Assembly (NCBI RefSeq): GCF_013315695.1
Contig: NZ_CP054353.1
Strand: one strand, 5' to 3'
Source of the DNA: Escherichia coli
Lineage (GTDB): Bacteria; Pseudomonadota; Gammaproteobacteria; Enterobacterales; Enterobacteriaceae
DNA: 64,000 nt
The position numbers and the translations under genes are program-made. Of this stretch, positions 14,553-60,011 are shown one piece after another (within the stretch, counting starts at the first letter, position 1; every line of letters begins with the position of its first letter). The notes under the pieces are model-generated. The model worked only from the letters and a program-made list of their open reading frames with translations, ran no database searches and was not told where the DNA came from.

Positions 14553-14803
14553 TTTGCTTCCAGAAATGATAAAAAAATAATCAAAGGCCGGGGATTATAC
14601 GCTGTATCACGCGCGGAAATGAAGTGATGTTGATGAACGGTGGCGAAATACCCTGGTGAGGTTTTTCACTGCCCGACTTGGGCAAGCACATTTAAGGCTG
14701 GCGGTATCGTGGCAACTGCCGCTACTATTTATGCCGATCAGCAACGTTCAAATCATATTGCACGACGATCGGCTATCCGAGGACACCCACAGTAAGGCAA
14801 GGT

Positions 14804-15553: not shown

Positions 15554-15875
15554 CCTTCATTAGTCCAGAGCTGGCGGGAAAAATAACGCCGGCTCTGCCT
15601 TCCGCCCTCCACTGGTACACGCTCTCTTTTTAATTGGTCTAATAAATCGACTATCATCAGATATCTTAGATTAGCGGCAATTATCCCAAAAACTGACTTC
15701 TAAAAAACTTTCCTTTCATTTTATTCATATAACTCATTGATAAAAATATAAATAACGCCTTGTTGTTCTGTTTCGTACTTTTATCTTTCTCTGCAAGCGT
15801 GATGCATCTCTCTGTTTTTGGCCTAGTGAATTATGTAAATTGGTCTACACACAAGCCACCAGGAGTAAGAGCATA

Positions 15876-17348
15876 ATGTCAGGGAACGAAAGTATCAATG
15901 CCGCCCACTATGATCAGGTAACCACCTGGCCTCGGGACGGGTTACAGGCAGATATTGTCCATATTGGTTTTGGCGCTTTTCATCGCGGACACCAGGCGGT
16001 CTACACGGATCTCACTAATCAACTTTCGGACACCCGCTGGGGGATCTTTGAGATCAACCTGTTTGGTGATGCTCAACTGATCGAAAACTTAAATGCACAA
16101 AATGGGCTGTTTTCGGTTGTGGAAACATCTGCATCGCAATCTACCTCACGCCTTGTGCGTTCGGTGGCTGGCGGTATTCATACCCCCAGAGATGGCATTG
16201 CCGCAGCAATCCATAAACTGGCTGAACCTCAGGTAAAAATCGTTTCATTAACCATCACCGAGAAAGGTTATTGCCTCGATCCGCAAACACGTTCACTTGA
16301 TCTCACCAATGGATTAATCCAACACGATCTACAAAACCCGGATGCGCCTCTGTCAGCTATTGGCGTGATCGTCTGTGCTTTGCAACAACGTAAAGCGATA
16401 GGACTCGCCGCTTTTAGTGTGCTCTCCTGTGACAACTTGCCAGACAATGGGCATCTGACGCGCAATGCCGTTCTCGGTTTTGCCCGACAACTGGACCAGC
16501 CCCTGGCTCAGTGGATCGAAGAAAATGTCTCATTTCCAGGCACGATGGTAGATCGCATTGTTCCGGCAATGACTGAATCGCAATTCGCCTTACTGGAAAC
16601 GAAAACCGGTTATGCCGATCCCTGCGGGATCGTCTGCGAATCATTTCGTCAGTGGGTGATCGAAGATAATTTTGTGCGCGGACGACCGAAATGGGATAAA
16701 GCCGGCGCGATGTTTGTCAGCAATGTTCAGCCTTATGAAGAGATGAAGTTACGCATGTTAAATGGTAGCCATTCATTTCTGGCTTATAACGGCTCGCTGG
16801 CAGGCTATGAGTTTATCTGGCAATGCATGGAAGACGCTAATTTTCGTTCCATTACCCACCAACTGATGATTAATGAACAAGCCCGAACACTTAATCCAGA
16901 CTTAAATATCAACATCCAGGAATACGCCGACCTGTTAATTGAACGCTTTAGCAACCGTAACGTTGCACACCGTACCGGGCAAATAGCCATGGACGGTTCA
17001 CAAAAGCTTCCCCAGCGTGCACTGACGCCCTGGCTGAAATTACATCAGCAAAAGCAAAACAATGCTGTTCTGTCACTGCTCGTTGCTGGTTGGTTGCATT
17101 ATGTCATTGATGCTGTTGAGAAAAGCCAGTCTGTCGCTGATCCAATGAATGACCAATTTCAGGCGCTAATAAAGGAACAACAAGACGCATGGCAACAGGC
17201 GCTCGCATTACTGCACCTTAGCGCCATATTTGGTGATTTAAGCAACCATCAGCCATTTATAAATGAAATAAAAATCGCCTTTGCGAATATAAAAAACAAA
17301 GGCATCAAGGCCACCATCAGCCAATTATTATCGGATGAGCAGAAATGA
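15876..17348 (+). CDS. mannitol-dehydrogenase-family oxidoreductase (UxuB/fructuronate reductase-like)
   Basis: About 490 aa from the ATG preceded by AGGAGT; family-level resemblance only. Confidence 0.75.
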   Translation: MSGNESINAAHYDQVTTWPRDGLQADIVHIGFGAFHRGHQAVYTDLTNQLSDTRWGIFEINLFGDAQLIENLNAQNGLFSVVETSASQSTSRLVRSVAGGIHTPRDGIAAAIHKLAEPQVKIVSLTITEKGYCLDPQTRSLDLTNGLIQHDLQNPDAPLSAIGVIVCALQQRKAIGLAAFSVLSCDNLPDNGHLTRNAVLGFARQLDQPLAQWIEENVSFPGTMVDRIVPAMTESQFALLETKTGYADPCGIVCESFRQWVIEDNFVRGRPKWDKAGAMFVSNVQPYEEMKLRMLNGSHSFLAYNGSLAGYEFIWQCMEDANFRSITHQLMINEQARTLNPDLNINIQEYADLLIERFSNRNVAHRTGQIAMDGSQKLPQRALTPWLKLHQQKQNNAVLSLLVAGWLHYVIDAVEKSQSVADPMNDQFQALIKEQQDAWQQALALLHLSAIFGDLSNHQPFINEIKIAFANIKNKGIKATISQLLSDEQK

Positions 17349-18361
17349 AAACATTAATTTGTCAGCAGCCTGGCGTTATGGAATATGTGGAAAAGGATAT
17401 TCCCACACCAGCAGATAATGAAGTGCTGTTAAAAATCAAAGCTGTGGGTATTTGTGGTACTGATATTCACGCTTTTGCCGGCAGACAGCCTTTTTTTAGC
17501 TACCCACGTGTATTAGGTCATGAAATATGCGCCGAAGCGGTTTCGCGAGGCAGCCAGTGCCAAACAGCACAATCAGGCCAGCGCTATTCCGTCATCCCAT
17601 GCATTCCGTGTGGCGAGTGCGCAGCCTGTCGGGAAGAGAAAACGAACTGCTGCGAACGTGTTTCGCTGTATGGCGTGCATCAGGATGGGGGTTTTAGTGA
17701 GTACCTTGCGGTACGTGAAGACAACCTTGTGCCTCTCCCTGACGAGGTCAGCGACAGTGCCGGAGCATTGGTTGAATGTTTCGCCATTGGTGCACATGCC
17801 GTTCGTCGGGCAGAGATCAAGGCTGAACAAAACGTACTGGTGGTTGGCGCTGGGCCAATCGGTCTGGCTACCGCGGCCATCGCCAGGGCTAAAGGGGCGC
17901 ATGTTGTTGTTGCTGATATTGATTGTCAACGTCGCCAGCACGTTGTGGATCATCTGGCAATTAATGTCTTCGACCCAACACAGGAAGGTTTTATTGCCGC
18001 GCTTAGTGAAGTATTTGGCGGCGAACTGGCTTGCGTAGTCCTGGATGCGACGGGAAATAAAGCTTCAATGAGTCATGATGTAAATCTTATTCGTCATGGC
18101 GGCAAAATTGTTTTCATCGGTTTGTACATTGGTGAACTTGTTATTGACGATCCGACCTTCCATAAAAAAGAGACAACGTTACTCAGCAGCCGCAATGCCA
18201 CACGGGAAGATTTTGCGTTGGTGATTGAACTGATGCGCAGCAATAAAATTCACGAAAATTTAATGAAAAACCAGGCATTCAATTTCTTTAGTGTTGGCGA
18301 AGATTACCAGCGTAACGTTGTAGAAAATAAAAATATGGTCAAGGGTGTGATCACTTTTTAA
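17345..18361 (+). CDS. zinc-dependent medium-chain alcohol/polyol dehydrogenase
   Basis: 338 aa; GHE zinc motif, GAGPIGL NAD-binding motif; 4-bp ATGA overlap with the upstream gene. Confidence 0.8.
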   Translation: MKTLICQQPGVMEYVEKDIPTPADNEVLLKIKAVGICGTDIHAFAGRQPFFSYPRVLGHEICAEAVSRGSQCQTAQSGQRYSVIPCIPCGECAACREEKTNCCERVSLYGVHQDGGFSEYLAVREDNLVPLPDEVSDSAGALVECFAIGAHAVRRAEIKAEQNVLVVGAGPIGLATAAIARAKGAHVVVADIDCQRRQHVVDHLAINVFDPTQEGFIAALSEVFGGELACVVLDATGNKASMSHDVNLIRHGGKIVFIGLYIGELVIDDPTFHKKETTLLSSRNATREDFALVIELMRSNKIHENLMKNQAFNFFSVGEDYQRNVVENKNMVKGVITF

Positions 18362-18371
18362 GGGAACAAAT

Positions 18372-19382
18372 ATGACAACTGTTTATGTCAGTGAAGAAAA
18401 TTTAAAATCACTGGTGCACCACAAATTACATACCGCCGGGCTGGATACCGACACCACACAACAGGTGACAGATGTTTTAGTACATGCCGATATTACAGGT
18501 GTGCATTCACATGGTGTTATGCGTGTCGAACATTATTGCACCCGCCTTGCTGCCGGAGGGTTAAATAAAGCCCCGCAGTTTAGCATTGAGCAAATTTCAC
18601 CGTCAGTGGCCATTCTCGACTCTGACGACGGAATGGGGCATTCCGCATTAATTAGCGCCACTGAGCACGCTATTAAACTGGCCCAGCAAGAGGGCCTCGG
18701 TTTTGTTAGCGTTAAAAACACGTCTCACTGTGGTGCGTTATCTTATTTTGCAGAGATGATCACCAACAAAGGGTTGGTTGCTATCGTAATGACGCAAACC
18801 GATACCTGTGTGGCTCCCCATGGCGGCGCCGAGCGCTTTTTGGGAACTAACCCCATCGCCTTTGGTTTCCCGGTGGAAAACAGCCATCCGATGATTGTTG
18901 ATATGGCGACCAGTGCCACGGCTTTCGGCAAAATACTTCATGCAAAGGAAACCGGAAAACATATTGGTGAAGGGCTGGCGATAGATAAAAACGGTTATGG
19001 CACCACTGATCCGTATAAGATTGAAAACCTGCTACCTTTCGGCCAACACAAAGGTTCAGGCATTGCACTGGCTATTGATGCACTGACTGGCGTGCTGATG
19101 AATGCGAATTTTGGCAACCATATTGTTCGCATGTATGGTGATTATGACAAGATGCGTAAGCTGGCAAGTTTGGTTATTGCCATCGATCCGAAAAAGCTCG
19201 GCAATCCTGTTTTTGCAAAAACCATGGCGCAAATGGTCACGGAGTTGCATGCCGTTAAACCGGCTCCCGGTATCGAAAAAGTGTTAGCGCCGAACGATCC
19301 GCAAATGCACTACAAAGAAAAATGCCAACAGGAAGGTATTCCGGTTCCGGCAGGAATATTCCATTATCTGGCAGAGAATTAA
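18372..19382 (+). CDS. Ldh_2-family dehydrogenase (malate/L-lactate or diketogulonate reductase-like)
   Basis: 336 aa; family-level resemblance (YiaK/AllD-like). Confidence 0.75.
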   Translation: MTTVYVSEENLKSLVHHKLHTAGLDTDTTQQVTDVLVHADITGVHSHGVMRVEHYCTRLAAGGLNKAPQFSIEQISPSVAILDSDDGMGHSALISATEHAIKLAQQEGLGFVSVKNTSHCGALSYFAEMITNKGLVAIVMTQTDTCVAPHGGAERFLGTNPIAFGFPVENSHPMIVDMATSATAFGKILHAKETGKHIGEGLAIDKNGYGTTDPYKIENLLPFGQHKGSGIALAIDALTGVLMNANFGNHIVRMYGDYDKMRKLASLVIAIDPKKLGNPVFAKTMAQMVTELHAVKPAPGIEKVLAPNDPQMHYKEKCQQEGIPVPAGIFHYLAEN

Positions 19383-19454
19383 TCACTACTTTTTATTATA
19401 ACGATAGAAAAGCGCTGTATTTATCGTTTCTGTTATATTAACCAGGAGCAGGAT

Positions 19455-20264
19455 ATGAAAGCACTTCGTCCTCTGACGGCATCGCTTATGCTGTTAACCA
19501 GTTGTTTATTAATATCTAATACCACACTGGCAAAAATAACATTAAAACTGAGTCATAATCAGGATAAAAGCCATGCTGTCCATAAAGCATTAAGCTATTT
19601 AGCGGATAAAACCAAAGAGTATTCTAATGGTGAATTAGTTATTCGCATTTACCCAAATGCAACATTAGGTAATGAGCGTGAATCACTGGAATTAATGAAC
19701 TCCGGTGCATTACAGATGGTTAAGGTTAATGCCGCATCACTAGAATCATTTGCTCCAGATTACAGCCTTTTCAGTCTGCCGTTCTTATTCCGCGACCGTG
19801 ATCACTATTATCGTGTTCTGCAAAGTGATTTAGGTAAAAAAATACTTAATTCATCAGAAAGCAAAGGTTTTGTTGGTATTACGTACTATGACGGCGGTGC
19901 GAGAAGTTTTTATTCCAATAAACCGATTACAAAACCTGAAGATTTAGCGGGAATGAAAATCAGGGTTCAACAAAGCCCCAGCGCCATTGCAATGATGAAA
20001 GCACTCGGTGGTGTCGCTACCCCGATGGCGCAAGGCGAACTCTACACCGCACTTCAGCAAGGTGTGGTTGATGGCGGAGAGAACAATACCGTTGTCTATT
20101 CCGATATGCGTCACGCCGAAGTCGCAAAAGTCTATTCACGTGATGAACACACCATGGTACCTGATGTGTTAATTATCAGCACCGACGTGTTGAATAAACT
20201 TGGTGATAAAGAGCGCACGGCATTATTAAAAGCAGCCGGTGATGCTGCCAACTTACTGATTTAG
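19455..20264 (+). pseudogene. TRAP transporter solute-binding protein (DctP family), 3'-truncated by IS1
   Basis: Signal peptide plus DctP-like sequence for 261 codons; last 8 codons (GDAANLLI*) are encoded by the IS1 terminal repeat. Confidence 0.75.
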
Positions 20265-20292
20265 TGTATGATGGTGTTTTTGAGGTGCTCCA

Positions 20293-20568
20293 GTGGCTTC
20301 TGTTTCTATCAGCTGTCCCTCCTGTTCAGCTACTGACGGGGTGGTGCGTAACGGCAAAAGCACCGCCGGACATCAGCGCTATCTCTGCTCTCACTGCCGT
20401 AAAACATGGCAACTGCAGTTCACTTACACCGCTTCTCAACCCGGTACGCACCAGAAAATCATTGATATGGCCATGAATGGCGTTGGATGCCGGGCAACAG
20501 CCCGCATTATGGGCGTTGGCCTCAACACGATTTTACGTCACTTAAAAAACTCAGGCCGCAGTCGGTAA
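20293..20568 (+). CDS. insA: IS1 InsA
   Basis: 91 aa; zinc-finger/HTH protein typical of IS1. Confidence 0.9.
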
Positions 20569-20990
20569 CCTCGCGCATACAGCCGGGCAGTGACGTCATC
20601 GTCTGCGCGGAAATGGACGAACAGTGGGGCTATGTCGGGGCTAAATCGCGCCAGCGCTGGCTGTTTTACGCGTATGACAGGCTCCGGAAGACGGTTGTTG
20701 CGCACGTATTCGGTGAACGCACTATGGCGACGCTGGGGCGTCTTATGAGCCTGCTGTCACCCTTTGACGTGGTGATATGGATGACGGATGGCTGGCCGCT
20801 GTATGAATCCCGCCTGAAGGGAAAGCTGCACGTAATCAGCAAGCGATATACGCAGCGAATTGAGCGGCATAACCTGAATCTGAGGCAGCACCTGGCACGG
20901 CTGGGACGGAAGTCGCTGTCGTTCTCAAAATCGGTGGAGCTGCATGACAAAGTCATCGGGCATTATCTGAACATAAAACACTATCAATAA
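20487..20990 (+). CDS. insB: IS1 InsB frame (transposase made by an InsAB' frameshift)
   Basis: 167-aa ORF overlapping insA in the -1 frame. Confidence 0.9.
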
Positions 20991-21004
20991 GTTGGAGTCA
21001 TTAC

Positions 21005-21046
21005 CGATTATGTCTACAGCAAAGAGTTGTATATCAAGGCACATTG
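21005..21046 (+). pseudogene. ygiS: orphaned 3' end of ygiS (DYVYSKELYIKAH*), displaced by the IS1-bounded inversion
   Basis: First 9 bp gattatgtc are the reverse complement of gacataatc at 26938..26946, which abuts the truncated ygiS; reading on yields ten codons and a stop, restoring the expected 535-aa length. Confidence 0.6.
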
Positions 21047-21184
21047 ATGTCTTTATCGCCGTCGGAGCACGTCCGGCGGCGCTATTCACGCTGATCTCCT
21101 GTGACTCGACGCGGCAGATAATGTAGTATCTCCGGCAATATTGCCCCTTTGAAGGCTGGCGAATAAGTTGAGGAATCAGAATTA

Positions 21185-23443
21185 ATGAGCGATATGGCAG
21201 AGCGCCTTGCGCTACATGAATTTACGGAAAACGCCTACTTAAACTACTCCATGTACGTGATCATGGACCGTGCGTTGCCGTTTATTGGTGATGGTCTGAA
21301 ACCCGTTCAGCGGCGCATTGTGTATGCGATGTCTGAACTGGGTCTGAATGCCAGTGCCAAATTTAAAAAATCGGCCCGTACCGTCGGTGACGTACTGGGT
21401 AAATACCATCCGCACGGCGATAGTGCCTGTTATGAAGCGATGGTCCTGATGGCGCAGCCGTTCTCTTACCGTTATCCGCTGGTTGATGGTCAGGGGAACT
21501 GGGGCGCGCCGGACGATCCGAAATCGTTCGCGGCAATGCGTTACACCGAATCCCGGTTATCGAAATATTCTGAGTTGCTATTAAGCGAGCTTGGACAGGG
21601 GACGGCTGACTGGGTGCCAAACTTCGACGGCACCTTACAGGAGCCGAAAATGCTGCCAGCCCGCCTGCCGAACATTTTGCTTAACGGCACCACCGGTATT
21701 GCCGTCGGCATGGCGACCGATATTCCACCGCATAACCTGCGTGAAGTGGCTCAGGCGGCAATCGCATTAATCGACCAGCCGAAAACCACGCTCGATCAGC
21801 TGCTGGATATCGTGCAGGGGCCGGATTATCCGACTGAAGCGGAAATTATCACTTCGCGCGCCGAGATTCGTAAAATCTACGAGAACGGACGTGGTTCAGT
21901 GCGTATGCGCGCGGTTTGGAAGAAAGAAGATGGCGCGGTGGTTATTAGCGCATTGCCGCATCAGGTTTCAGGTGCGCGCGTACTGGAGCAAATTGCTGCG
22001 CAAATGCGCAACAAAAAGCTGCCGATGGTTGACGATCTGCGCGATGAATCTGACCACGAGAACCCGACCCGTCTGGTGATTGTGCCGCGTTCCAACCGCG
22101 TGGATATGGATCAGGTGATGAACCACCTCTTTGCTACCACCGATCTGGAAAAGAGCTATCGCATTAACCTCAATATGATCGGTCTGGATGGTCGTCCGGC
22201 GGTGAAAAACCTGCTGGAAATCCTCTCCGAATGGCTGGTGTTCCGCCGCGATACCGTGCGCCGCCGACTGAATTATCGTCTGGAGAAAGTCCTCAAGCGC
22301 CTGCATATCCTCGAAGGTTTGCTGGTGGCGTTTCTCAATATCGACGAAGTGATTGAGATCATTCGTAATGAAGATGAACCGAAACCGGCGCTGATGTCGC
22401 GGTTTGGCCTTACTGAAACCCAGGCGGAAGCGATCCTCGAACTGAAACTGCGTCATCTTGCCAAACTGGAAGAGATGAAGATTCGCGGTGAGCAGAGTGA
22501 GCTGGAAAAAGAGCGCGACCAGTTGCAGGGCATTTTGGCTTCCGAGCGTAAAATGAATAACCTGCTGAAGAAAGAACTGCAGGCAGACGCGCAAGCCTAC
22601 GGTGACGAACGTCGTTCGCCGTTGCAGGAACGCGAAGAAGCGAAAGCGATGAGCGAGCACGACATGCTGCCGTCTGAACCTGTCACCATTGTGCTGTCGC
22701 AGATGGGCTGGGTACGCAGCGCTAAAGGCCATGATATCGACGCGCCGGGCCTGAATTATAAAGCGGGCGATAGCTTCAAAGCGGCGGTGAAAGGTAAGAG
22801 CAACCAACCGGTAGTGTTTGTTGATTCCACCGGTCGTAGCTATGCCATCGACCCGATTACGCTGCCGTCGGCGCGTGGTCAGGGCGAACCGCTCACCGGC
22901 AAATTAACGTTGCCGCCTGGAGCGACCGTTGACCATATGCTGATGGAAAGCGACGATCAGAAACTGCTGATGGCTTCCGATGCGGGTTACGGTTTCGTCT
23001 GCACCTTTAACGATTTGGTGGCGCGTAACCGTGCAGGTAAGGCTTTGATCACCTTACCGGAAAATGCCCATGTTATGCCGCCGGTGGTGATTGAAGATGC
23101 TTCCGATATGCTGCTGGCAATCACTCAGGCAGGCCGTATGTTGATGTTCCCGGTAAGCGATCTGCCGCAGCTGTCGAAGGGCAAAGGCAACAAGATTATC
23201 AACATTCCATCGGCAGAAGCCGCGCGTGGAGAAGATGGTCTGGCGCAACTGTACGTTCTGCCGCCGCAAAGCACGCTGACCATTCATGTTGGGAAACGCA
23301 AAATTAAACTGCGTCCGGAAGAGCTACAGAAAGTCACTGGCGAACGTGGACGCCGCGGTACGTTGATGCGCGGTTTGCAGCGTATCGATCGTGTTGAGAT
23401 CGACTCTCCTCGCCGTGCCAGCAGCGGTGATAGCGAAGAGTAA
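21185..23443 (+). CDS. parC: DNA topoisomerase IV subunit A
   Basis: 752 aa; GyrA/ParC family. Confidence 0.95.
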
Positions 23444-23676
23444 TATGCCGGGGAGGGCGCTGTTTCCTCCCGCTTGCAAGGAACGCCGGATGAAACGTTA
23501 AGTCGTCATCCGGCAGCGTATTCTACCCCCGGAAACGATAAAAATTCCCTTGAAACCGTTGTTTATTCATGCGTTGCGATTAACAATACGCTTTTCCAGA
23601 GAGCGGCTTTTAACAATGCCCTAACCTGATTTCAGGTGACGTACAATGCCAGTCTCTCAGACCTTCAGAGGGTGTT

Positions 23677-24414
23677 ATGCTATATATCTTTCGTCTTATT
23701 ATTACCGTGATTTACAGCATCTTAGTCTGTGTATTCGGCTCCATTTACTGCCTTTTCAGCCCGCGTAACCCGAAACATGTGGCCACCTTTGGGCATATGT
23801 TTGGTCGTCTTGCACCGCTGTTCGGCCTGAAAGTTGAGTGCCGCAAACCTGCGGATGCTGAAAGCTACGGCAATGCTATCTATATCGCTAACCACCAGAA
23901 CAACTATGACATGGTCACAGCATCGAACATTGTGCAACCGCCGACGGTGACGGTAGGTAAAAAGAGCTTGCTGTGGATCCCCTTCTTCGGGCAGTTGTAC
24001 TGGTTAACCGGCAACTTATTGATCGACAGAAACAATCGCACTAAAGCTCACGGCACTATTGCGGAAGTCGTGAATCACTTCAAAAAACGCCGTATTTCCA
24101 TCTGGATGTTCCCGGAAGGAACCCGCAGCCGTGGTCGCGGCCTGCTGCCGTTCAAGACCGGGGCATTTCACGCGGCAATTGCGGCGGGCGTCCCGATTAT
24201 TCCCGTGTGCGTCTCTACAACTTCGAATAAGATTAATCTTAATCGACTGCACAACGGTCTGGTGATTGTCGAAATGCTGCCGCCAATTGACGTCAGTCAG
24301 TATGGCAAAGATCAGGTTCGTGAGCTGGCTGCCCATTGTCGTTCGATAATGGAACAAAAAATCGCCGAGCTCGATAAAGAAGTCGCAGAGCGCGAAGCCG
24401 CCGGAAAAGTTTAA
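23677..24414 (+). CDS. plsC: 1-acyl-sn-glycerol-3-phosphate acyltransferase
   Basis: 245 aa; HX4D acyltransferase motif (NHQNNYD). Confidence 0.9.
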   Translation: MLYIFRLIITVIYSILVCVFGSIYCLFSPRNPKHVATFGHMFGRLAPLFGLKVECRKPADAESYGNAIYIANHQNNYDMVTASNIVQPPTVTVGKKSLLWIPFFGQLYWLTGNLLIDRNNRTKAHGTIAEVVNHFKKRRISIWMFPEGTRSRGRGLLPFKTGAFHAAIAAGVPIIPVCVSTTSNKINLNRLHNGLVIVEMLPPIDVSQYGKDQVRELAAHCRSIMEQKIAELDKEVAEREAAGKV

Positions 24415-24488
24415 GTCGGCAATCTGTATTTTTGCGGGGAACACTTTCCTGCACGGTATTACTTTAGCCAGTTTTACATGGAGCAAAT

Positions 24489-25901
24489 ATGTCACTCAGT
24501 CGGCGTCAGTTCATTCAGGCATCGGGGATTGCACTTTGTGCAGGCGCTGTTCCCCTGAAGGCCAGCGCAGCCGGGCAACAGCAACCGCTACCCGTTCCGC
24601 CGCTGCTTGAATCTCGCCGTGGGCAACCGCTGTTTATGACTGTACAACGTGCGCACTGGTCATTTACGCCAGGGACACGCGCGTCGGTTTGGGGAATCAA
24701 TGGTCGTTACCTGGGGCCGACTATCCGCGTCTGGAAGGGCGACGATGTTAAGCTTATTTACAGCAACCGCCTGACAGAAAATGTCTCAATGACGGTGGCC
24801 GGGCTACAGGTACCAGGCCCGCTGATGGGCGGTCCGGCACGGATGATGTCGCCAAACGCTGACTGGGCACCCGTACTGCCCATTCGCCAGAACGCAGCTA
24901 CTCTGTGGTATCACGCCAATACTCCCAACCGCACGGCTCAGCAGGTCTATAACGGCCTTGCCGGAATGTGGCTGGTGGAAGATGAAGTCAGCAAGTCGCT
25001 GCCTATCCCCAACCATTATGGTGTGGATGATTTTCCGGTCATTATCCAGGATAAACGGCTGGATAACTTTGGTACGCCAGAATACAACGAACCGGGAAGC
25101 GGCGGCTTTGTTGGTGATACGCTGCTGGTTAACGGTGTGCAAAGCCCGTACGTTGAAGTCTCGCGTGGCTGGGTGCGCTTGCGACTGCTGAACGCGTCGA
25201 ACTCTCGTCGCTATCAACTACAGATGAGCGATGGTCGCCCGTTACATGTGATTTCTGGCGATCAGGGATTCCTGCCTGCTCCTGTATCGGTGAAGCAACT
25301 TTCGCTGGCACCGGGCGAGCGCCGCGAGATTCTGGTGGATATGAGCAACGGTGATGAAGTGTCGATCACCTGTGGTGAAGCGGCGAGCATTGTTGATCGT
25401 ATTCGCGGCTTCTTTGAGCCATCCAGTATTCTGGTGTCTACGCTGGTGCTAACGCTGCGCCCAACCGGCCTTCTGCCGCTGGTCACAGACAGTCTTCCGA
25501 TGCGCTTGCTGCCAACTGAAATCATGGCCGGTTCGCCGATTCGTAGTCGCGATATCAGTCTGGGTGATGACCCGGGTATTAATGGACAACTGTGGGACGT
25601 CAACCGTATTGATGTCACCGCGCAGCAAGGAACGTGGGAACGCTGGACGGTACGCGCGGACGAGCCGCAAGCGTTCCATATTGAAGGCGTGATGTTCCAG
25701 ATCCGTAACGTGAATGGCGCGATGCCGTTCCCGGAAGACAGAGGCTGGAAAGATACCGTTTGGGTTGACGGACAAGTGGAGCTGCTGGTTTATTTCGGTC
25801 AGCCTTCCTGGGCGCACTTCCCGTTCTACTTCAACAGTCAGACGCTGGAAATGGCGGACCGTGGCTCGATTGGGCAACTGTTGGTCAATCCGGTACCGTA
25901 A
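24489..25901 (+). CDS. ftsP: cell-division multicopper-oxidase-like protein (SufI)
   Basis: 470 aa; Tat signal peptide (SRRQFI). Confidence 0.9.
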   Translation: MSLSRRQFIQASGIALCAGAVPLKASAAGQQQPLPVPPLLESRRGQPLFMTVQRAHWSFTPGTRASVWGINGRYLGPTIRVWKGDDVKLIYSNRLTENVSMTVAGLQVPGPLMGGPARMMSPNADWAPVLPIRQNAATLWYHANTPNRTAQQVYNGLAGMWLVEDEVSKSLPIPNHYGVDDFPVIIQDKRLDNFGTPEYNEPGSGGFVGDTLLVNGVQSPYVEVSRGWVRLRLLNASNSRRYQLQMSDGRPLHVISGDQGFLPAPVSVKQLSLAPGERREILVDMSNGDEVSITCGEAASIVDRIRGFFEPSSILVSTLVLTLRPTGLLPLVTDSLPMRLLPTEIMAGSPIRSRDISLGDDPGINGQLWDVNRIDVTAQQGTWERWTVRADEPQAFHIEGVMFQIRNVNGAMPFPEDRGWKDTVWVDGQVELLVYFGQPSWAHFPFYFNSQTLEMADRGSIGQLLVNPVP

Positions 25902-25911
25902 TGGACCAATT

Positions 25912-25940
25912 CAATGCCCCACAGAGTGGTGGGGCATTGA
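25912..25940. terminator. hairpin after ftsP, possibly bidirectional with the dctM remnant
   Basis: Perfect stem aatgcccca...tggggcatt. Confidence 0.4.
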
Positions 25941-25971
25941 AAATTACTCAGTATGCAGTCTTCACTGTGTA

Positions 25972-26170
25972 TCAGGTCGAAAATAATCCTGGCAGCATCA
26001 GACTAAGCTGCGGGAAATAACAAATAATTGCCATTACTACAAACAATGCCAGAAACATCGGCAGTAATGGTTTTATTGCCCTGTCGATACTGACCTTACC
26101 AATGCTGCACCCCACAAACAGAATGGTGCCGACAGGTGGTGTGCAAAGGCCAATGGTTAAGTTGAAAACG
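25972..26170 (-). pseudogene. C-terminal remnant of a TRAP transporter large permease (DctM-like), cut by IS1
   Basis: Minus-strand translation from the IS1 junction: VFNLTIGLCTPPVGTILFVGCSIGKVSIDRAIKPLLPMFLALFVVMAIICYFPQLSLMLPGLFST*; no start codon. Confidence 0.6.
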
Positions 26171-26184
26171 GTAATGACTCCAAC

Positions 26185-26688
26185 TTATTGATAGTGTTTT
26201 ATGTTCAGATAATGCCCGATGACTTTGTCATGCAGCTCCACCGATTTTGAGAACGACAGCGACTTCCGTCCCAGCCGTGCCAGGTGCTGCCTCAGATTCA
26301 GGTTATGCCGCTCAATTCGCTGCGTATATCGCTTGCTGATTACGTGCAGCTTTCCCTTCAGGCGGGATTCATACAGCGGCCAGCCATCCGTCATCCATAT
26401 CACCACGTCAAAGGGTGACAGCAGGCTCATAAGACGCCCCAGCGTCGCCATAGTGCGTTCACCGAATACGTGCGCAACAACCGTCTTCCGGAGCCTGTCA
26501 TACGCGTAAAACAGCCAGCGCTGGCGCGATTTAGCCCCGACATAGCCCCACTGTTCGTCCATTTCCGCGCAGACGATGACGTCACTGCCCGGCTGTATGC
26601 GCGAGGTTACCGACTGCGGCCTGAGTTTTTTAAGTGACGTAAAATCGTGTTGAGGCCAACGCCCATAATGCGGGCTGTTGCCCGGCAT
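26185..26688 (-). CDS. insB: IS1 InsB frame
   Basis: Protein identical to the copy-1 InsB. Confidence 0.9.
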
Positions 26689-26882
26689 CCAACGCCATTC
26701 ATGGCCATATCAATGATTTTCTGGTGCGTACCGGGTTGAGAAGCGGTGTAAGTGAACTGCAGTTGCCATGTTTTACGGCAGTGAGAGCAGAGATAGCGCT
26801 GATGTCCGGCGGTGCTTTTGCCGTTACGCACCACCCCGTCAGTAGCTGAACAGGAGGGACAGCTGATAGAAACAGAAGCCAC
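26607..26882 (-). CDS. insA: IS1 InsA
   Basis: Protein identical to the copy-1 InsA. Confidence 0.9.
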
Positions 26883-26910
26883 TGGAGCACCTCAAAAACA
26901 CCATCATACA

Positions 26911-28512
26911 CTAAATCAGTAAGTTGGCAGCATCACCGACATAATCCTGGGGATTATGCAGCGGAAAACCGCCAACGTAGGGTTTAAGCAGTTTGATTAA
27001 CGGCTGATAATAGACAGGAATGAGCGGTGCCTGCTGGTTGATGATCACTTCTGCCTGCTGATACAACGCATTACGCTTTGTTGCATCAGCCGTTTGTGCC
27101 GCCTGGTTTAGTAAGGCGTCATACTGCGCGTTTTTCCAGTGGCCGACATTTTCCTCGCTATCGCTCTTAAGCGTGTTCAGAAAGGTGGAGGCATCATTGT
27201 ACGTCGCATCCCACGACTGCCGAGACAACATGAAATCACCGGCTCGTCGGGCATCAAGATAAGTTTTCCACTCCATTGTGCGCAGCGTCACCTGTGCACC
27301 CAGCCATTTTTTCCATTCGGAAGACAACGCTATCGCGGTCTTTTCATGCAGATCGTACTTGTTGTAGAACAGCTCAAAGCGAAGCGGATGAGAGGCGTCG
27401 TATCCCGCCTGTTTCAACAAGGCTTTTGCCATCGCGACGCGCTCACTCAGCGGCTTTTGCAGTTCATCGAACGTCGTCGCGCTAAAGCCTTTTACCTCTG
27501 GCGGCGTCAGCGTAGTTGCGGGCGTTCTCAACCCCAGTACCTTTTGCGCAATAAGCTGTCGATCAACCGTAAGATATAGCGCCCGACGCACCCGCACATC
27601 GTTAAATGGCGGTTTCTCAAGGTTGAAGTTGTAATATTCGCTGTTCAGACGCGGAATAATTCGTAGCTCGCCAGGCAGTGATTTTTCAATGGCGGGAATT
27701 TGCTGCGCCGGAACCCAGGTGAGATCGACCTCTCCCGCGCGATAGCGGTTATAGCCGGTGACCGAATTATCCAGCGCCAGATACTCAACCTGTTGCAATA
27801 CTGTATGTTGCGCATCGCGGTACTTTGGATTTTTGCGTGCAGTAATCTTTTCGTTAACTACCCACTGATCAAGCACAAAGGCACCGTTGTAAACCATGTT
27901 CTCTGGCTTACTCCAGCTATCGCCATGTTTAGCGATGACATGATGAGGAACCGGGAACAGCGTCGGCCAGGCGAGCATCGTCGTGAACCAAGGAACTGGC
28001 TGCTCAAGCGTAACTTCAAGAGTACGATCATCCATCGCTTTGACACCCAGCGATGTAACATCTGCTTTACCCGCAACAATAGCCGCGGCATTGTTAATGT
28101 GCGCCTGTGCCAGATAGCCAGCAAAAGGGCTTGCCGTTTTCGGGTCAACCGCACGTTGCCAGCCGAGGACAAAATCCTCTGCTGTCAGAGGCTGACCGTC
28201 TGACCACTGCAAACCGCTACGCAGATGGAAAATATAGCGCTTGCCGCCGTCCAGTATCTCCCAGCGTTCAGCCTGAGCGGGCTGCACCTGGCCTTCACCG
28301 TCCATCCATACCAGACCTTCAAACAGATCCAGCACAATCTGCGCGGCAGTATTCTCCTCTACCTTTTGCGGGTCGAGCGTGCCTGGGTCGCTATGATTGT
28401 TGTAACGAAAAACTTGTTGCGGGGCGAGCGGTGTGTTGGCGGGAACGTCAGCAGCGTAGAGAGGAGCCGCACTTACCAGGCTGACCAGCCATAATAAATT
28501 TCGCGTATACAT
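26911..28512 (-). CDS. ygiS: periplasmic oligopeptide-type ABC substrate-binding protein with an IS1-encoded C-terminal tail
   Basis: 533 aa; signal peptide; SBP family 5; last 8 aa GDAANLLI come from the IS1 end (native part 26938..28512). Confidence 0.75.
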   Translation of the reverse strand: MYTRNLLWLVSLVSAAPLYAADVPANTPLAPQQVFRYNNHSDPGTLDPQKVEENTAAQIVLDLFEGLVWMDGEGQVQPAQAERWEILDGGKRYIFHLRSGLQWSDGQPLTAEDFVLGWQRAVDPKTASPFAGYLAQAHINNAAAIVAGKADVTSLGVKAMDDRTLEVTLEQPVPWFTTMLAWPTLFPVPHHVIAKHGDSWSKPENMVYNGAFVLDQWVVNEKITARKNPKYRDAQHTVLQQVEYLALDNSVTGYNRYRAGEVDLTWVPAQQIPAIEKSLPGELRIIPRLNSEYYNFNLEKPPFNDVRVRRALYLTVDRQLIAQKVLGLRTPATTLTPPEVKGFSATTFDELQKPLSERVAMAKALLKQAGYDASHPLRFELFYNKYDLHEKTAIALSSEWKKWLGAQVTLRTMEWKTYLDARRAGDFMLSRQSWDATYNDASTFLNTLKSDSEENVGHWKNAQYDALLNQAAQTADATKRNALYQQAEVIINQQAPLIPVYYQPLIKLLKPYVGGFPLHNPQDYVGDAANLLI

Positions 28513-55338: not shown

Positions 55339-55343
55339 AGCAA

Positions 55344-56497: not shown

Positions 56498-58159
56498 ATG
56501 GATGATATTGTTAATTCTGTGCCCTCCTGGATGTTTACCGCGATTATTGCCGTATGCATTCTGTTTATTATTGGAATTATTTTCGCCAGGCTCTATCGTC
56601 GCGCTTCGGCAGAGCAAGCTTTTGTTCGTACTGGTTTAGGTGGGCAAAAAGTGGTAATGAGCGGTGGCGCAATCGTGATGCCGATCTTTCATGAAATAAT
56701 CCCCATCAATATGAATACTCTGAAGCTGGAAGTCAGCCGCTCAACCATTGATAGCCTGATTACGAAAGATCGTATGCGCGTCGATGTCGTTGTCGCTTTC
56801 TTTGTGCGGGTAAAACCGTCAGTGGAAGGTATTGCCACCGCCGCCCAGACGCTGGGGCAACGCACCCTGTCGCCTGAAGACTTACGTATGTTGGTTGAAG
56901 ATAAATTTGTCGATGCCCTCCGTGCAACAGCTGCACAAATGACCATGCATGAGTTACAGGATACCCGCGAGAACTTCGTGCAGGGCGTACAAAATACCGT
57001 TGCTGAAGATCTGTCGAAAAACGGCCTGGAACTGGAAAGCGTTTCACTTACCAACTTTAACCAGACGTCGAAAGAACATTTCAATCCTAACAACGCCTTT
57101 GACGCCGAAGGTTTAACCAAGCTGACGCAGGAGACGGAGCGCCGTCGTCGCGAACGTAACGAAGTTGAACAGGATGTAGAAGTTGCGGTGCGTGAGAAAA
57201 ACCGTGATGCGCTTTCGCGGAAGCTGGAGATTGAACAGCAAGAAGCGTTTATGACGCTTGAGCAGGAGCAGCAGGTTAAAACCCGTACCGCTGAGCAGAA
57301 TGCGAAAATTGCGGCTTTTGAAGCTGAACGTCGTCGTGAAGCAGAGCAGACGCGAATTCTGGCTGAACGACAGATTCAGGAAACAGAAATCGACCGCGAA
57401 CAGGCCGTCCGCTCAAGAAAAGTTGAAGCTGAACGTGAAGTTCGCATTAAAGAGATCGAACAACAGCAGGTCACCGAAATCGCCAACCAGACGAAATCGA
57501 TCGCTATTGCCGCCAAATCGGAACAGCAGTCACAAGCGGAAGCGCGTGCCAACCTTGCACTTGCAGAAGCGGTAAGCGCCCAGCAAAACGTAGAAACCAC
57601 TCGCCAGACCGCAGAAGCCGATCGTGCTAAACAAGTTGCCCTAATCGCTGCCGCGCAGGATGCAGAAACCAAAGCGGTTGAACTGACCGTGCGGGCGAAA
57701 GCAGAGAAAGAAGCCGCAGAGATGCAGGCGGCGGCGATCGTTGAGTTAGCCGAAGCAACACGCAAAAAAGGCCTGGCGGAAGCAGAAGCGCAACGTGCGC
57801 TGAACGACGCTATCAACGTACTTTCTGACGAGCAAACCAGCCTTAAATTCAAACTGGCCTTGTTGCAGGCGCTACCTGCGGTAATTGAGAAATCCGTGGA
57901 ACCAATGAAGTCCATTGACGGTATCAAGATTATTCAGGTCGATGGATTAAACCGAGGTGGTGCTGCGGGGGATGCGGCATCAGGCAGCGTTAGTGGCGGA
58001 AACCTGGCAGAACAGGCATTGTCTGCCGCCCTTTCTTACCGCACACAGGCACCGCTGATTGACTCCTTGCTCAATGAAATTGGCGTTTCAGGCGGCTCAC
58101 TGGCGGCATTGACTTCCCCCTTAACCTCAACAACTCCCGTCGAAGAAAAAACAGAGTAA
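56498..58159 (+). CDS. yqiK: SPFH/band-7 flotillin-like protein
   Basis: 553 aa; N-terminal TM helix, SPFH domain, long charged coiled-coil (EA-rich). Confidence 0.85.
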   Translation: MDDIVNSVPSWMFTAIIAVCILFIIGIIFARLYRRASAEQAFVRTGLGGQKVVMSGGAIVMPIFHEIIPINMNTLKLEVSRSTIDSLITKDRMRVDVVVAFFVRVKPSVEGIATAAQTLGQRTLSPEDLRMLVEDKFVDALRATAAQMTMHELQDTRENFVQGVQNTVAEDLSKNGLELESVSLTNFNQTSKEHFNPNNAFDAEGLTKLTQETERRRRERNEVEQDVEVAVREKNRDALSRKLEIEQQEAFMTLEQEQQVKTRTAEQNAKIAAFEAERRREAEQTRILAERQIQETEIDREQAVRSRKVEAEREVRIKEIEQQQVTEIANQTKSIAIAAKSEQQSQAEARANLALAEAVSAQQNVETTRQTAEADRAKQVALIAAAQDAETKAVELTVRAKAEKEAAEMQAAAIVELAEATRKKGLAEAEAQRALNDAINVLSDEQTSLKFKLALLQALPAVIEKSVEPMKSIDGIKIIQVDGLNRGGAAGDAASGSVSGGNLAEQALSAALSYRTQAPLIDSLLNEIGVSGGSLAALTSPLTSTTPVEEKTE

Positions 58160-58175
58160 ACCCTCTTCTATGAAT

Positions 58176-58208
58176 AATCCCTGGCCCAAAAAGCCGGGGA
58201 TTTTTTAT
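58176..58208 (+). terminator. yqiK rho-independent terminator
   Basis: Hairpin aatccctggc...gccggggatt followed by a T-run. Confidence 0.5.
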
Positions 58209-58339
58209 ATCTGCGTTCCGCTAAAAAGTACAAATGTTCAGGTTGTTACAGCGTTTTTCGAGCCGACTCGGGGAAGAGAAAACTGCATAAGAGAAAGCAT
58301 TGCGCGGGGTCTGGCGCTCATCAACAATCGGGGAGTCAG

Positions 58340-58480
58340 CAAGGGGCTGAAACGGGAAAGCCCCTCCCGAGGAAGGGGCCTTATAGAAGGAAAGGGTTAT
58401 GATGAAGTTCGTCATCATACTGGTTGTGTTGTTACTGTTAAGTTTCCCGACTTACTAACAACTCATCAGAGGGGGGAGAA
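58340..58480 (-). ncRNA. sib: Sib-type antisense sRNA antitoxin (boundaries approximate)
   Basis: Inferred from the ibs ORF and the GC-rich hairpins on the opposite strand; no promoter or terminator mapped. Confidence 0.35.
58399..58458 (+). CDS. ibs: Ibs-type type I toxin peptide, 19 aa (MMKFVIILVVLLLLSFPTY)
   Basis: atgatgaag... ORF with a GGAAAGG RBS; hydrophobic peptide ending in FPTY; below the size cutoff of the ORF track. Confidence 0.6.
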   Translation: MMKFVIILVVLLLLSFPTY

Positions 58481-58577
58481 ATCCTCCCTTACCCTTGTTC
58501 CTTTACTTTAGGTTGAAAAAACAACAGCGTCAATAGGTCTATCCGGCACAACGCGAGAACTGTGAAGCGCTTTCCGG

Positions 58578-60011
58578 TTAGCCTTTTTTATCCTGTTGGA
58601 TCTTCTTGATAATGTTAGTGGTCGAGCAACCGTCTTCAAAGTTGAGCACCAGCACTTCGCCACCATTGGCCCAGACTTCTTTACTCCCGGCAATCTCTTC
58701 TGGTTTATAATCGCCGCCTTTCACCAGCAGGTCTGGCAGGATCCCGGCGATCAAGCGCTGCGGCGTGTCTTCTTCAAACGACACCACCCAGTCGACCGCT
58801 TCCAGTGCGCCCAGCACAATCATACGCTGTTCGAGCGGGTTAACGGGGCGGGAATCCCCTTTCAGCCGTTTGGTGGAGGCATCGCTGTTGACGGCGACAA
58901 TCAAACGGTCACCCAGTTTACGGGCATTTGCCAGATAAGAGACGTGTCCGGCGTGCAGGATGTCAAAGACGCCATTGGTCATCACCACTTTTTCACCGCG
59001 TTTACGCGCTGCCGCTACAGCAAGCTTCAGTTCCTCTTCGGTCATCACGCCAAAGCCGGTATCTGCACGTCCACGTACTGCATTTTCCAGCTCGATCGGC
59101 GAAACCGTGGATGTCCCCAGTTTGCCGACCACCACACCAGCCGCCGCATTGGCAAAGAAGCAGGCTTCTTCCAGCGAATTACCCGCTGCCAGCGTTGCCG
59201 CCAGGACACCAATCACCGTGTCGCCCGCACCGGTAACGTCATACACTTCCTGCGCCTGGGTTGGCATATGCAGCGGCGCTTTACCCGGTTGCAGCAGCGA
59301 CATACCCTGTTCGGAACGGGTCACTAACAGAGCCGAGAGTTCGTAATCGGCAATCAGTTTCATGCCGCGCTCAACAATCTCTTCTTCGGTTTTACATTTA
59401 CCGACAACAGCTTCAAATTCCGAGAGATTCGGCGTTAACAGCGTAGCGCCGCGGTAGCGCTCAAAATCGGTACCTTTTGGATCAATCAGCACCGGAACAC
59501 CCGCTTTACGCGCCAGTTGGATCATCTGCTGTACGCTTGCCAGCGCACCTTTGGCGTAGTCAGAAAGCACCAGCGCGCCAATCGAACTCAGCGCCTGATT
59601 AATCCGTTCGTGCAGCGGCTGCGGATCAACACCTTCGAAACCTTCTTCAAAATCCAGACGAATCAGCTGTTGGTTGCGGGAAAGCACCCGTAATTTGGTG
59701 ATGGTCGGATGCGTCGGTACAGAAACGAAGTCGCATTTGACGTTGACGTCGGCCAGAGATTTACTCAGCGCGCGCGCCGCATCGTCAATGCCCGTTAACC
59801 CGACCAGGCGTGCATTAGCACCGAGAGAAGCGATATTCATCGCCACGTTAGCCGCGCCGCCCGGACGTTCTTCGATGGTATTTACTTTAACCACGGGCAC
59901 CGGCGCTTCCGGCGAGATACGGCTGGTGGGACCGTACCAGTAACGATCCAGCATCACATCACCAACCACCATCACTCCTGCACGTTCAAACTCTGGCAGC
60001 GTTACTTTCAT
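58578..60011 (-). CDS. hldE: bifunctional heptose 7-phosphate kinase / heptose 1-phosphate adenylyltransferase
   Basis: 477 aa. Confidence 0.95.

What the first reader, a model, noticed from the sequence alone, without database searches (positions are those of the whole stretch)
58340..58480. Single-copy Ibs/Sib-type type I toxin-antitoxin in the yqiK-hldE spacer
A 19-codon ORF (58399..58458) encodes MMKFVIILVVLLLLSFPTY with a good RBS, matching the short hydrophobic Ibs toxin family whose antisense Sib sRNA is made from the opposite strand. It is invisible to the ORF track. From memory, K-12 carries two tandem copies (sibD and sibE) at this position; here the 418-bp spacer has room for only one, so copy number differs.
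Basis: partly seen in the sequence, partly recalled or inferred. Interest (0 to 1): 0.5.

Follow-up and report, generated by a model that had tools for sequence, protein, structure and literature searches.

The report
Known ibsE/sibE toxin-antitoxin, single copy
The yqiK-hldE spacer holds one intact copy of the well-known E. coli Ibs/Sib small-toxin/antisense-RNA pair. It is already annotated as ibsE in public genomes, and having one copy instead of K-12's two is a common strain polymorphism, so the finding is correct but ordinary.

Summary
Window 58399..58458 (+) encodes MMKFVIILVVLLLLSFPTY, which matches K-12 IbsE at 18 of 19 residues (L4F). The opposite strand carries a full-length match to Rfam RF00113 SIB_RNA (142 bits, gathering score 56, E 2e-29). 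Aligned to the annotated K-12 sibE, the antitoxin RNA is 58498..58355 (-), 144 nt, 140/144 identical, and starts with A. Its promoter, P1 stem, anti-Shine-Dalgarno single strand and terminator hairpin are all intact.

The spacer is 418 bp, against 794 bp in K-12, which has ibsD/sibD plus ibsE/sibE with a period of about 375-377 bp. The same ORF is already annotated as ibsE (WP_001387082.1) in RefSeq genomes identical to the window (MSB1_4I, MS 21-1).

A single copy is not unusual. The K-12 D-E junction is present in 3930 of 5426 complete E. coli genomes, so about 28% lack the tandem. Single-copy genomes carry at least four different unit sequences. Citrobacter, Kluyvera and Phytobacter (and, per the literature, Salmonella) have one copy at this site, while E. 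albertii has the D and E types in tandem. The single copy in E. coli is therefore most likely a secondary loss of the D unit. I could not place the breakpoint.

Verdict: already known, low interest.

The parts
58177..58540 (.). One Sib/ibs repeat unit (formerly called a QUAD repeat). It is homologous to both tandem units of K-12 and starts inside the yqiK terminator hairpin.
   Evidence: Alignments to the K-12 D and E units and to the E. albertii and Escherichia sp. E1V33 units. BLAST gives 95.6% identity to E. albertii unit 2.
58176..58202 (+). Intrinsic terminator hairpin of yqiK followed by a T run. In K-12 it is duplicated as the first ~50 nt of each repeat unit.
   Evidence: Terminator scan. 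The sequence ATCCCTGGCCCAAAAAGCCGGGGAT occurs at the start of both K-12 units.
58300..58328 (+). Inferred ibs promoter: -35 TTGCGC (58300..58305), 17-nt spacer, -10 AACAAT (58323..58328).
   Evidence: Read from the sequence. It lies 6 nt upstream of the position homologous to the ibsD transcription start. The block is largely conserved in every Escherichia unit aligned, with no more than two differences from the window in any unit across the 29 nt. It fell below the threshold of the consensus scan. Inferred, not shown.
58335..58496 (+). ibs mRNA, about 162 nt, with a 64-nt 5' UTR.
   Evidence: By homology to K-12 ibsD. The primers ERI-T7-ibsD (GTCAGCAGGGGGCTG) and ibsD+163, which Han et al. 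2010 designed from their primer-extension start site and the ~160-nt transcript length, map to 58335 and 58496 (PMC2943612).
58387..58396 (+). Shine-Dalgarno region AAGGAAAGGG of ibs.
   Evidence: Sequence. It is conserved in all units and is complementary to the single-stranded stretch +108..+116 of the Sib RNA.
58399..58458 (+). ibs toxin ORF, 19 codons plus stop, MMKFVIILVVLLLLSFPTY (IbsE allele with L4F).
   Evidence: Translation. 18/19 identical to K-12 IbsE. Annotated as ibsE, WP_001387082.1, in NZ_LR898874.1 and NZ_CP146670.1.
58355..58498 (-). Sib antitoxin RNA (SibE orthologue), 144 nt, first base A at 58498. It is antisense to nearly the whole ibs mRNA.
   Evidence: Local alignment to the annotated K-12 sibE (NC_000913.3 3195097..3195240) gives 140/144 identity without gaps. 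Rfam RF00113 scores 142 bits. The fold is -51.8 kcal/mol, z -3.84.
58505..58533 (-). Sib promoter: -35 TTGACG, 17-nt spacer, -10 TAAAGT.
   Evidence: Promoter scan, 9 of 12 matches. The -10 element ends 6 nt before the A at 58498. The -10 reads TAAAGT as in K-12 sibD; K-12 sibE has TAGAGT (site 58508).
58430..58452 (-). Target recognition domain 1 (TRD1) of Sib, pairing inside the ibs ORF.
   Evidence: Mapped from SibC +46..+68 (PMC2943612) through the Sib alignment. It is identical to K-12 SibE.
58380..58399 (-). Target recognition domain 2 (TRD2) of Sib, pairing with the ibs translation initiation region.
   Evidence: Mapped from SibC +99..+115. It differs from K-12 SibD at 1 position and from SibE at 2. 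It is partly single-stranded in the predicted fold.
58357..58382 (-). Terminator hairpin of Sib (11-bp stem, UCGG loop).
   Evidence: Predicted fold, positions +117..+142. It corresponds to the P7 terminator stem of SibC (PMC2943612).

Best explanation
This is the ibsE/sibE orthologue of E. coli, an intact chromosomal type I toxin-antitoxin module. The plus strand gives an mRNA of about 162 nt (58335..58496) that encodes the 19-residue hydrophobic peptide IbsE(L4F). In characterised relatives this peptide inserts into the inner membrane, depolarises it and stops growth. The minus strand gives a 144-nt Sib RNA (58498..58355) from its own sigma-70 promoter. This RNA is perfectly complementary to almost the whole ibs mRNA. 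By homology to SibC, it first contacts the mRNA through TRD1 (inside the ORF) and TRD2 (over the Shine-Dalgarno and start codon). Pairing then spreads, which blocks translation and exposes the duplex to RNase III. The strain has one unit where K-12 has two (D and E). The retained RNA and ORF part is E-type, and the D unit was most likely lost by recombination between the two direct repeats of about 375 bp. Shown here: the sequence features, their homology and the population frequencies. Inferred from relatives: transcription, toxicity and repression in this strain.
For: Rfam RF00113 matches full-length at 142.2 bits against a gathering score of 56. The Sib RNA is 140/144 identical to the annotated K-12 sibE, without gaps, and starts with A as sibE does (PMC12956327). 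The peptide is 18/19 identical to IbsE. The promoter is found by scan. The fold has the P1 stem, the single-stranded anti-SD stretch and the terminator hairpin. TRD1 is identical to SibE. RefSeq annotates the identical ORF as ibsE. The mechanism of the family is taken from Han et al. 2010 (PMC2943612) and the review PMC8309996.

For secondary loss: E. albertii and Escherichia sp. E1V33 have two tandem units in the same spacer. In the RNA/ORF half, K-12 D is close to E. albertii unit 1 (6 differences), and K-12 E, E. albertii unit 2 and the window are close to each other (6-8 differences), while the D and E types differ at 19-22 positions. The D/E split therefore predates E. coli. Strain E54 carries a single unit identical to the K-12 E unit, which is a clean deletion of D.
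Against: There is no expression or toxicity data for this allele or strain. L4F is untested, although F at this position also occurs in E. albertii unit 2, E1V33 unit 1 and 'E. coli' SCPM-O-B-8794, and deleting the N-terminal residues of IbsC (V5 excepted) did not impair its toxicity (PMC8309996). An HMM test of the peptide was not possible: NCBIfam gave no hit for the 20-residue padded peptide.

The deletion breakpoint is not resolved. Against K-12, the unit looks D-like to the left of about 58387 and E-like to the right. Against E. albertii, the left half is closest to unit 2 (9 differences, against 18 to unit 1).
Confidence: 0.9

Rival explanations
1. The single copy is the ancestral, never-duplicated state of this spacer, inherited from the enterobacterial ancestor, and the tandem pair of K-12 is a later gain.
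For: Citrobacter sp. FP75, C. youngae, Kluyvera sichuanensis, two Phytobacter species and an unnamed Enterobacteriaceae genome each have one unit between yqiK and hldE. A single ibs in the Salmonella yqiK-rfaE spacer is reported in bioRxiv 10.1101/2025.05.26.656083. In the left half, the two units of one genome tend to resemble each other, which is what a recent duplication or gene conversion would produce.
Against: E. albertii and Escherichia sp. E1V33 already have two units. In the RNA/ORF half these units are orthologous to K-12 D and E (6 differences within a type, 19-22 between types), so the duplication predates E. coli. The window's unit is clearly E-type in that half, not intermediate. 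E54 shows that clean loss of D does happen. Single-copy genomes carry at least four different unit sequences.
Confidence: 0.1
2. The unit is a D/E recombinant: an unequal crossover between about 58387 and 58422 joined the ibsD promoter, 5' UTR and TRD2 target to the ibsE ORF, TRD1 and sibE promoter. This would give a pair with mixed recognition domains.
For: Against K-12, informative sites are almost all D-type from 58141 to 58334 and almost all E-type from 58423 to 58536, with a mixed zone in between. TRD2 differs from SibD at 1 position and from SibE at 2, while TRD1 is identical to SibE. The Sib -10 element matches sibD.
Against: The left half is closer to E. albertii unit 2 (9 differences) than to K-12 D (12) or E. 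albertii unit 1 (18). Few sites separate D from E consistently across the three two-copy genomes in the left half, and the window is split at those sites. The K-12 E unit could be the diverged one. No closely related two-copy genome was found to serve as a parent: all two-copy hits are 92% identical or less over the 1-kb query.
Confidence: 0.3
3. The locus is a decaying remnant: the ORF and antisense RNA are recognisable but no longer expressed or toxic.
For: There is no expression data for this strain. The lineage has only two Sib loci in total (this one and ibsC/sibC), which fits a general trend towards loss.
Against: The ORF, both start codons, the SD, both promoters, the +1 A, the P1 stem and the terminator are all intact. 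The Sib RNA is 97% identical to a K-12 gene that is expressed (PMC12956327). The same 150-nt Sib segment occurs unchanged in many genomes.
Confidence: 0.05

Closest known systems
ibsE/sibE of E. coli K-12 MG1655 (b4666/b4611; Rfam RF00113 SIB_RNA)
   Same: Same position next to hldE and same strand arrangement. The RNA is 140/144 identical and the peptide 18/19 identical. TRD1 is identical. The +1 A, promoter layout and terminator hairpin are the same.
   Different: L4F in the peptide. There are two changes in TRD2 and one in the terminator loop. The -10 is TAAAGT instead of TAGAGT. No ibsD/sibD unit lies upstream. The upstream 160 nt of the unit differ at 20 positions from the K-12 E unit.
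ibsD/sibD of E. coli K-12 (b4664/b4447)
   Same: Same spacer, next to yqiK. The upstream part of the window's unit and its TRD2 are closer to D than to E of K-12.
   Different: The peptide is only 14/19 identical, the RNA is 89.7% identical, and TRD1 differs at 5 positions.
ibsC/sibC of E. coli (the experimentally dissected member)
   Same: Same architecture: a ~140-nt antisense RNA spanning the ORF and translation initiation region, with TRD1, TRD2, a P1 stem and a terminator stem (PMC2943612). A second locus of this type is present in the related genome MS 21-1.
   Different: 69.9% RNA identity and 13/19 peptide identity. It sits at a different chromosomal site (serA-fau).
Salmonella Typhimurium ibsA/sibA in the yqiK-rfaE spacer
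   Same: A single ibs copy in the same spacer, encoding a 19-aa toxin (bioRxiv 10.1101/2025.05.26.656083). One Salmonella locus next to hldE was recovered here (L052).
   Different: Different species. The unit is about 81% identical in the one Salmonella locus next to hldE. Its reported target, Fo of the ATP synthase, has not been tested for E. coli IbsE.

Membership tests
Sib antitoxin RNA (Rfam RF00113) | Scores above the family gathering threshold with the covariance model, full length | tested here: met
   142.2 bits against a gathering score of 56, model positions 1-147 of 147, E 2.2e-29.
Sib antitoxin RNA (Rfam RF00113) | Encoded antisense to an ibs ORF, spanning both the ORF and its translation initiation region | tested here: met
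   Sib 58498..58355 (-) covers the ORF 58399..58458 and the SD 58387..58396.
Sib antitoxin RNA (Rfam RF00113) | Own promoter, ~140-nt transcript, P1 stem, single-stranded TRD2 and terminator hairpin | tested here: met
   Promoter scan. 144 nt by alignment to the annotated sibE. Predicted fold with these elements, z -3.84. This is sequence-level evidence only.
Sib antitoxin RNA (Rfam RF00113) | Transcript is made and represses the cognate ibs | not testable with these tools
   No transcript data exist for this strain. K-12 SibE is detected by northern blot (PMC12956327).
Ibs type I toxins | 18-19 residue, strongly hydrophobic peptide with the MMK/R start and the SF..Y end of the family | tested here: met
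   MMKFVIILVVLLLLSFPTY aligned without gaps to IbsA, C, D and E gives 13, 13, 14 and 18 of 19 identities.
Ibs type I toxins | Match to a curated protein family model | tested here: inconclusive
   NCBIfam gave no hit for the peptide padded to 20 residues. The peptide is too short for these tools. RefSeq names the identical protein 'type I toxin-antitoxin system Ibs family toxin'.
Ibs type I toxins | Overexpression arrests growth and depolarises the membrane | not testable with these tools
   Known for IbsC and relatives (PMC8309996). Not known for the L4F allele.
Tandem sibD-sibE arrangement of K-12 | Two units in the yqiK-hldE spacer joined by the D-E junction sequence | tested here: not met
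   One Rfam hit and one ibs ORF in a 418-bp spacer. The junction is present in 3930 of 5426 E. coli genomes.

The most novel reading that the evidence does not exclude
The single unit is a natural D/E chimera, in which an E-type TRD1 and ORF are combined with a D-like TRD2 and 5' UTR. Lineages that lost one unit would then carry a Sib RNA with mixed specificity. That would be a natural test of the two-domain discrimination model of Han et al. 2010, and of whether discrimination relaxes once the neighbouring paralogue is gone.
Probability: 0.25. Interest if true: 0.25.

Novelty: already known. Interest (0 to 1): 0.1.

Why it matters
It matters little beyond annotation. The locus is a textbook type I toxin-antitoxin pair, and ORF callers with a length cut-off miss it, so flagging it was correct. 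The survey adds three modest points. About 28% of complete E. coli genomes have one unit here instead of two, and about 15 have three. The D/E pair predates the split between E. coli and E. albertii. The single-copy state has arisen more than once. These points could interest people who study paralogue discrimination among Sib RNAs, but none of them is surprising.

Tried and rejected
1. NCBIfam scan of the peptide. The peptide had to be padded with the upstream in-frame V to reach 20 residues, and the scan returned nothing. This says only that the peptide is too short. Pfam and PHROGs scans need 30 or 20 residues and were not attempted.

2. Fozo et al. 2008 (PMC2597788) and Fozo 2012 (10.4161/rna.22568), the primary sources on Sib/Ibs and strain variation, are not held. 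I used Han 2010, Fozo 2010, a 2021 review and two recent papers instead.

3. Mapping a D/E crossover. The K-12 comparison gave a neat D-left/E-right mosaic. Adding E. albertii, E1V33 and other single-copy genomes showed that the left halves do not sort by D/E position. I do not claim a breakpoint.

4. In one search the seed I used to cut the units out of L004-L006 hit a site upstream of yqiK, so those three rows are meaningless there. I redid them from the ORF coordinates.

5. The coverage count of the 1-kb query (2680 genomes at 80% or more) cannot separate one from two copies, because split alignments are joined. I used the junction-specific 73-nt query instead.

6. I considered that the window came from strain MS 21-1, which is 100% identical over 57900-58900. 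It does not: other parts are 97-99% identical and the structure differs. MSB1_4I matches 100% over 14000-27500.

Full report
**What is in the sequence**

Window 58399..58458 on the plus strand translates to MMKFVIILVVLLLLSFPTY followed by a stop. The ORF has two consecutive ATG codons and is preceded by AAGGAAAGGG at 58387..58396. It is absent from the mechanical ORF list only because that list starts at 20 residues.

A scan of the whole window against Rfam gives one full-length match to RF00113 SIB_RNA, on the minus strand at 58533..58384. It scores 142.2 bits against a gathering score of 56, E 2.2e-29. This is far beyond chance. It is the only Sib match in the 64 kb, and a six-frame pattern search found no second ibs-like ORF.

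**Anatomy**

The Rfam model includes the promoter, so I placed the RNA ends by aligning the annotated K-12 sibE (NC_000913.3 3195097..3195240) to the window.

- **Sib RNA.** It runs 58498..58355 (-), is 144 nt long, aligns without gaps at 140/144 identity, and begins with A. K-12 sibE is likewise reported to start with A (PMC12956327).
- **Sib promoter.** A -35 TTGACG, a 17-nt spacer and a -10 TAAAGT end 6 nt upstream of that A.
- **Sib fold.** The RNA folds at -51.8 kcal/mol (z -3.84). The fold has a closing stem between the 5' end and the region around +100, a single-stranded stretch at +108..+116 that is complementary to the ibs Shine-Dalgarno region, and an 11-bp terminator hairpin at +117..+142. 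This matches the P1, J1/7 and P7 layout described for SibC (PMC2943612).
- **Recognition domains.** Transferring the SibC coordinates through an alignment of all Sib RNAs puts TRD1 at 58430..58452, inside the ORF, and TRD2 at 58380..58399, over the SD and start codon.
- **ibs mRNA.** The primers ERI-T7-ibsD and ibsD+163, which Han et al. designed from their primer-extension start site and the ~160-nt transcript size, map to 58335 and 58496. This predicts an mRNA of about 162 nt. A plausible promoter lies at the right distance: TTGCGC, 17 nt, AACAAT, at 58300..58328. That promoter is inferred. It did not pass the consensus scan, but the block is largely conserved in every Escherichia unit I aligned.

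**Identity**

- **Peptide.** It is 18/19 identical to K-12 IbsE (L4F), 14/19 to IbsD, and 13/19 to IbsA and IbsC.
- **RNA.** It is 97.2% identical to SibE, 89.7% to SibD, and 70-73% to SibA, SibB and SibC.
- **TRD1 and TRD2.** TRD1 is identical to SibE. TRD2 differs from SibD at one position and from SibE at two.
- **Existing annotation.** The 1-kb region 57900..58900 is 100% identical to E. coli MS 21-1. Region 14000..27500 is 100% identical to E. coli MSB1_4I. In both RefSeq records this very ORF is annotated as ibsE, WP_001387082.1, 'type I toxin-antitoxin system Ibs family toxin'.

The feature is therefore already known and already annotated.

**Copy number**

K-12 has a 794-bp spacer with ibsD/sibD and ibsE/sibE, with a period of about 375-377 bp. 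Each unit begins with a copy of the yqiK terminator hairpin. I counted tandem arrangements with a 73-nt query centred on the D-E junction of K-12, which cannot reach 80% coverage unless the junction itself is present.

| Measure | Result |
|---|---|
| Genomes with the D-E junction | 3930 of 5426 complete E. coli genomes |
| Genomes lacking the tandem | about 1495 (about 28%) |
| Extra junction places (3948 places in 3933 genomes) | 15, consistent with three tandem units in about 15 genomes |
| Single-unit rows in an evenly spaced sample from the 1-kb search | 11 of 40 |
| Sib-like places per genome (150-nt Sib query) | 2 to 7, median 4 |

The listed genomes whose Sib is identical to the window's mostly have only two Sib-like places (five of six). 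In MS 21-1 the second place is ibsC/sibC between serA and fau.

The literature already records that Ibs copy number differs between strains and species. Fozo et al. 2010 list 6 in EDL933, 4 in S. flexneri 2a, 7 in S. boydii, 2 in a Salmonella and 1 in C. koseri (PMC2887945). The Salmonella yqiK-rfaE spacer is reported to hold a single ibs (bioRxiv 10.1101/2025.05.26.656083).

**Origin of the single copy**

I ran an exact-pattern scan of one genome per species with AAGGAAAGGGTTATGATG and then BLASTed the recovered loci against the window's flanks.

- **One unit between yqiK and hldE:** two Citrobacter, Kluyvera sichuanensis, two Phytobacter, an unnamed Enterobacteriaceae genome, and 'E. coli' SCPM-O-B-8794.
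- **Two tandem units:** E. albertii and Escherichia sp. E1V33.
- **Cut off, uninformative:** E. whittamii and one other Escherichia.

In the half of the unit that carries the RNA and ORF, K-12 D and E. albertii unit 1 differ at 6 positions. K-12 E, E. albertii unit 2 and the window differ from each other at 6-8 positions. D-type and E-type units differ at 19-22 positions. The D/E pair is therefore older than the split between E. coli and E. albertii, and the window's unit is E-type. This makes a secondary loss of D the most economical reading.

Loss has happened more than once. Strain E54 has a single unit with no differences from the K-12 E unit. GPEC657 has a single unit closest to E1V33 unit 2, with the peptide MMKLVIILIVLLLVSFQAY. 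Strain 4/1-1 shares the window's peptide but has a different upstream half.

**Where the recombination happened**

I could not tell. Against K-12 alone, the window is D-like up to about 58334, mixed from 58342 to 58386, and E-like from 58423 on. That pattern looks like an unequal crossover. With E. albertii added, the upstream half is closest to unit 2 (9 differences), then to K-12 D (12), and far from unit 1 (18). The upstream halves of the two units within one genome also tend to resemble each other. The K-12 mosaic may therefore reflect divergence or gene conversion in K-12 and not a breakpoint here. No two-copy genome close to this haplotype turned up: only 104 records are 95% identical or more over the 1-kb query, and the two-copy genomes listed are all 92% or less.

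**How it most likely works**

The mechanism is taken from the characterised members. The Sib RNA is made constitutively. It contacts the ibs mRNA through TRD1 and TRD2, and pairing spreads from those sites. The start region is then covered and the duplex becomes a substrate for RNase III (PMC2943612). If Ibs is made, it acts in the inner membrane, causing depolarisation and growth arrest (PMC8309996). For Salmonella IbsA, a preprint reports inhibition of the Fo sector of ATP synthase. Sib promoters respond positively to ppGpp and DksA, and Sib RNAs that start with A are partly NAD-capped (PMC12956327).

None of this was tested for the present allele. L4F lies in the N-terminal part; in IbsC, deleting the N-terminal residues did not impair toxicity, V5 excepted. 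F also occurs at this position in other Escherichia lineages.

**Verdict**

The object is a known and annotated member of a well-studied family, and its copy-number state is shared by roughly a quarter of sequenced E. coli. Interest is low. The only mildly novel reading left open is that the unit is a natural TRD1(E)/TRD2(D-like) chimera.

Noticed in passing
window 20238-21006 and 26169-26937, with 21006-25902 between them: Two IS1 copies in inverted orientation flank a segment (ftsP-plsC-parC) that is inverted relative to K-12 and to MS 21-1. Only 2 of 5426 complete E. coli genomes (MSB1_4I and OZ547117) match this arrangement over 80% or more of the 13.5-kb query. It looks like an IS1-mediated inversion.
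   Followed up: partly
window 14602-20238: An insertion relative to K-12 next to ygiQ. The best-matching genomes annotate mannitol dehydrogenase family, zinc-binding alcohol dehydrogenase, Ldh-family oxidoreductase and TRAP transporter genes under the 14000-27500 query that spans it.
   Followed up: no
window about 28613-28619 and 55269-55342: Relative to K-12, the mqsR/mqsA toxin-antitoxin pair (between ygiS and ygiV) and the ygiL-yqiGHI fimbrial operon (between ubiK and glgS) are absent.
   Followed up: no
window about 32739-40046 and 48119-51815: Two further insertions relative to K-12. By the annotation of the near-identical MS 21-1 segment, one is a TonB-dependent siderophore receptor with a FecCD-type ABC transporter and a MurR/RpiR regulator between ygiN and parE. 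The other is aryl-sulfate sulfotransferase with dsbL and dsbI between ygiC and ygiD.
   Followed up: no
window 55342-64000: Identity to K-12 is lower here than elsewhere in the window: 95.0% over yqiJ-yqiK-sib and 96.4% over hldE-glnE, against 97.3-98.5% elsewhere. Much of the difference sits in the 3' end of yqiK (57900-58050) and in the spacer. The HldE protein is nevertheless identical to that of K-12. Only 18 records are 99% identical or more over 57900-58900.
   Followed up: partly
window 54769-54917 (-): FMN riboswitch upstream of ribB, Rfam RF00050, 120.9 bits. It is annotated as such in MS 21-1.
   Followed up: no
window 9928-9991 (+): Full-length match to Rfam RF02753, ES173 sRNA, 99 bits against a gathering score of 90.
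   Followed up: no
window 58170-58511 (+) and 58221-58418 (-): Mechanical ORFs of 113 and 65 codons run across the Sib/ibs module in other frames. They are most likely spurious. A similar long ORF over the Salmonella ibs was shown to be a misannotation (bioRxiv 10.1101/2025.05.26.656083).
   Followed up: no
K-12 locus L001:2107-2179 as query (the D-E junction): Across the 3933 E. coli genomes with the D-E junction there are 15 more places than genomes, at most 2 per genome. That would mean three tandem Sib/ibs units in the yqiK-hldE spacer of about 15 genomes.
   Followed up: no
window 58505-58510 (-): The -10 element of the Sib promoter reads TAAAGT as in K-12 sibD, whereas K-12 sibE has TAGAGT. 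The sibD minimal promoter is the one shown to drive strong NAD capping (PMC12956327).
   Followed up: no
MS 21-1 record NZ_CP146670.1, locus L076 32913-34251 (window about 29.7-31.1 kb): qseC is annotated as frameshifted in MS 21-1. I did not check whether the window carries the same frameshift.
   Followed up: no
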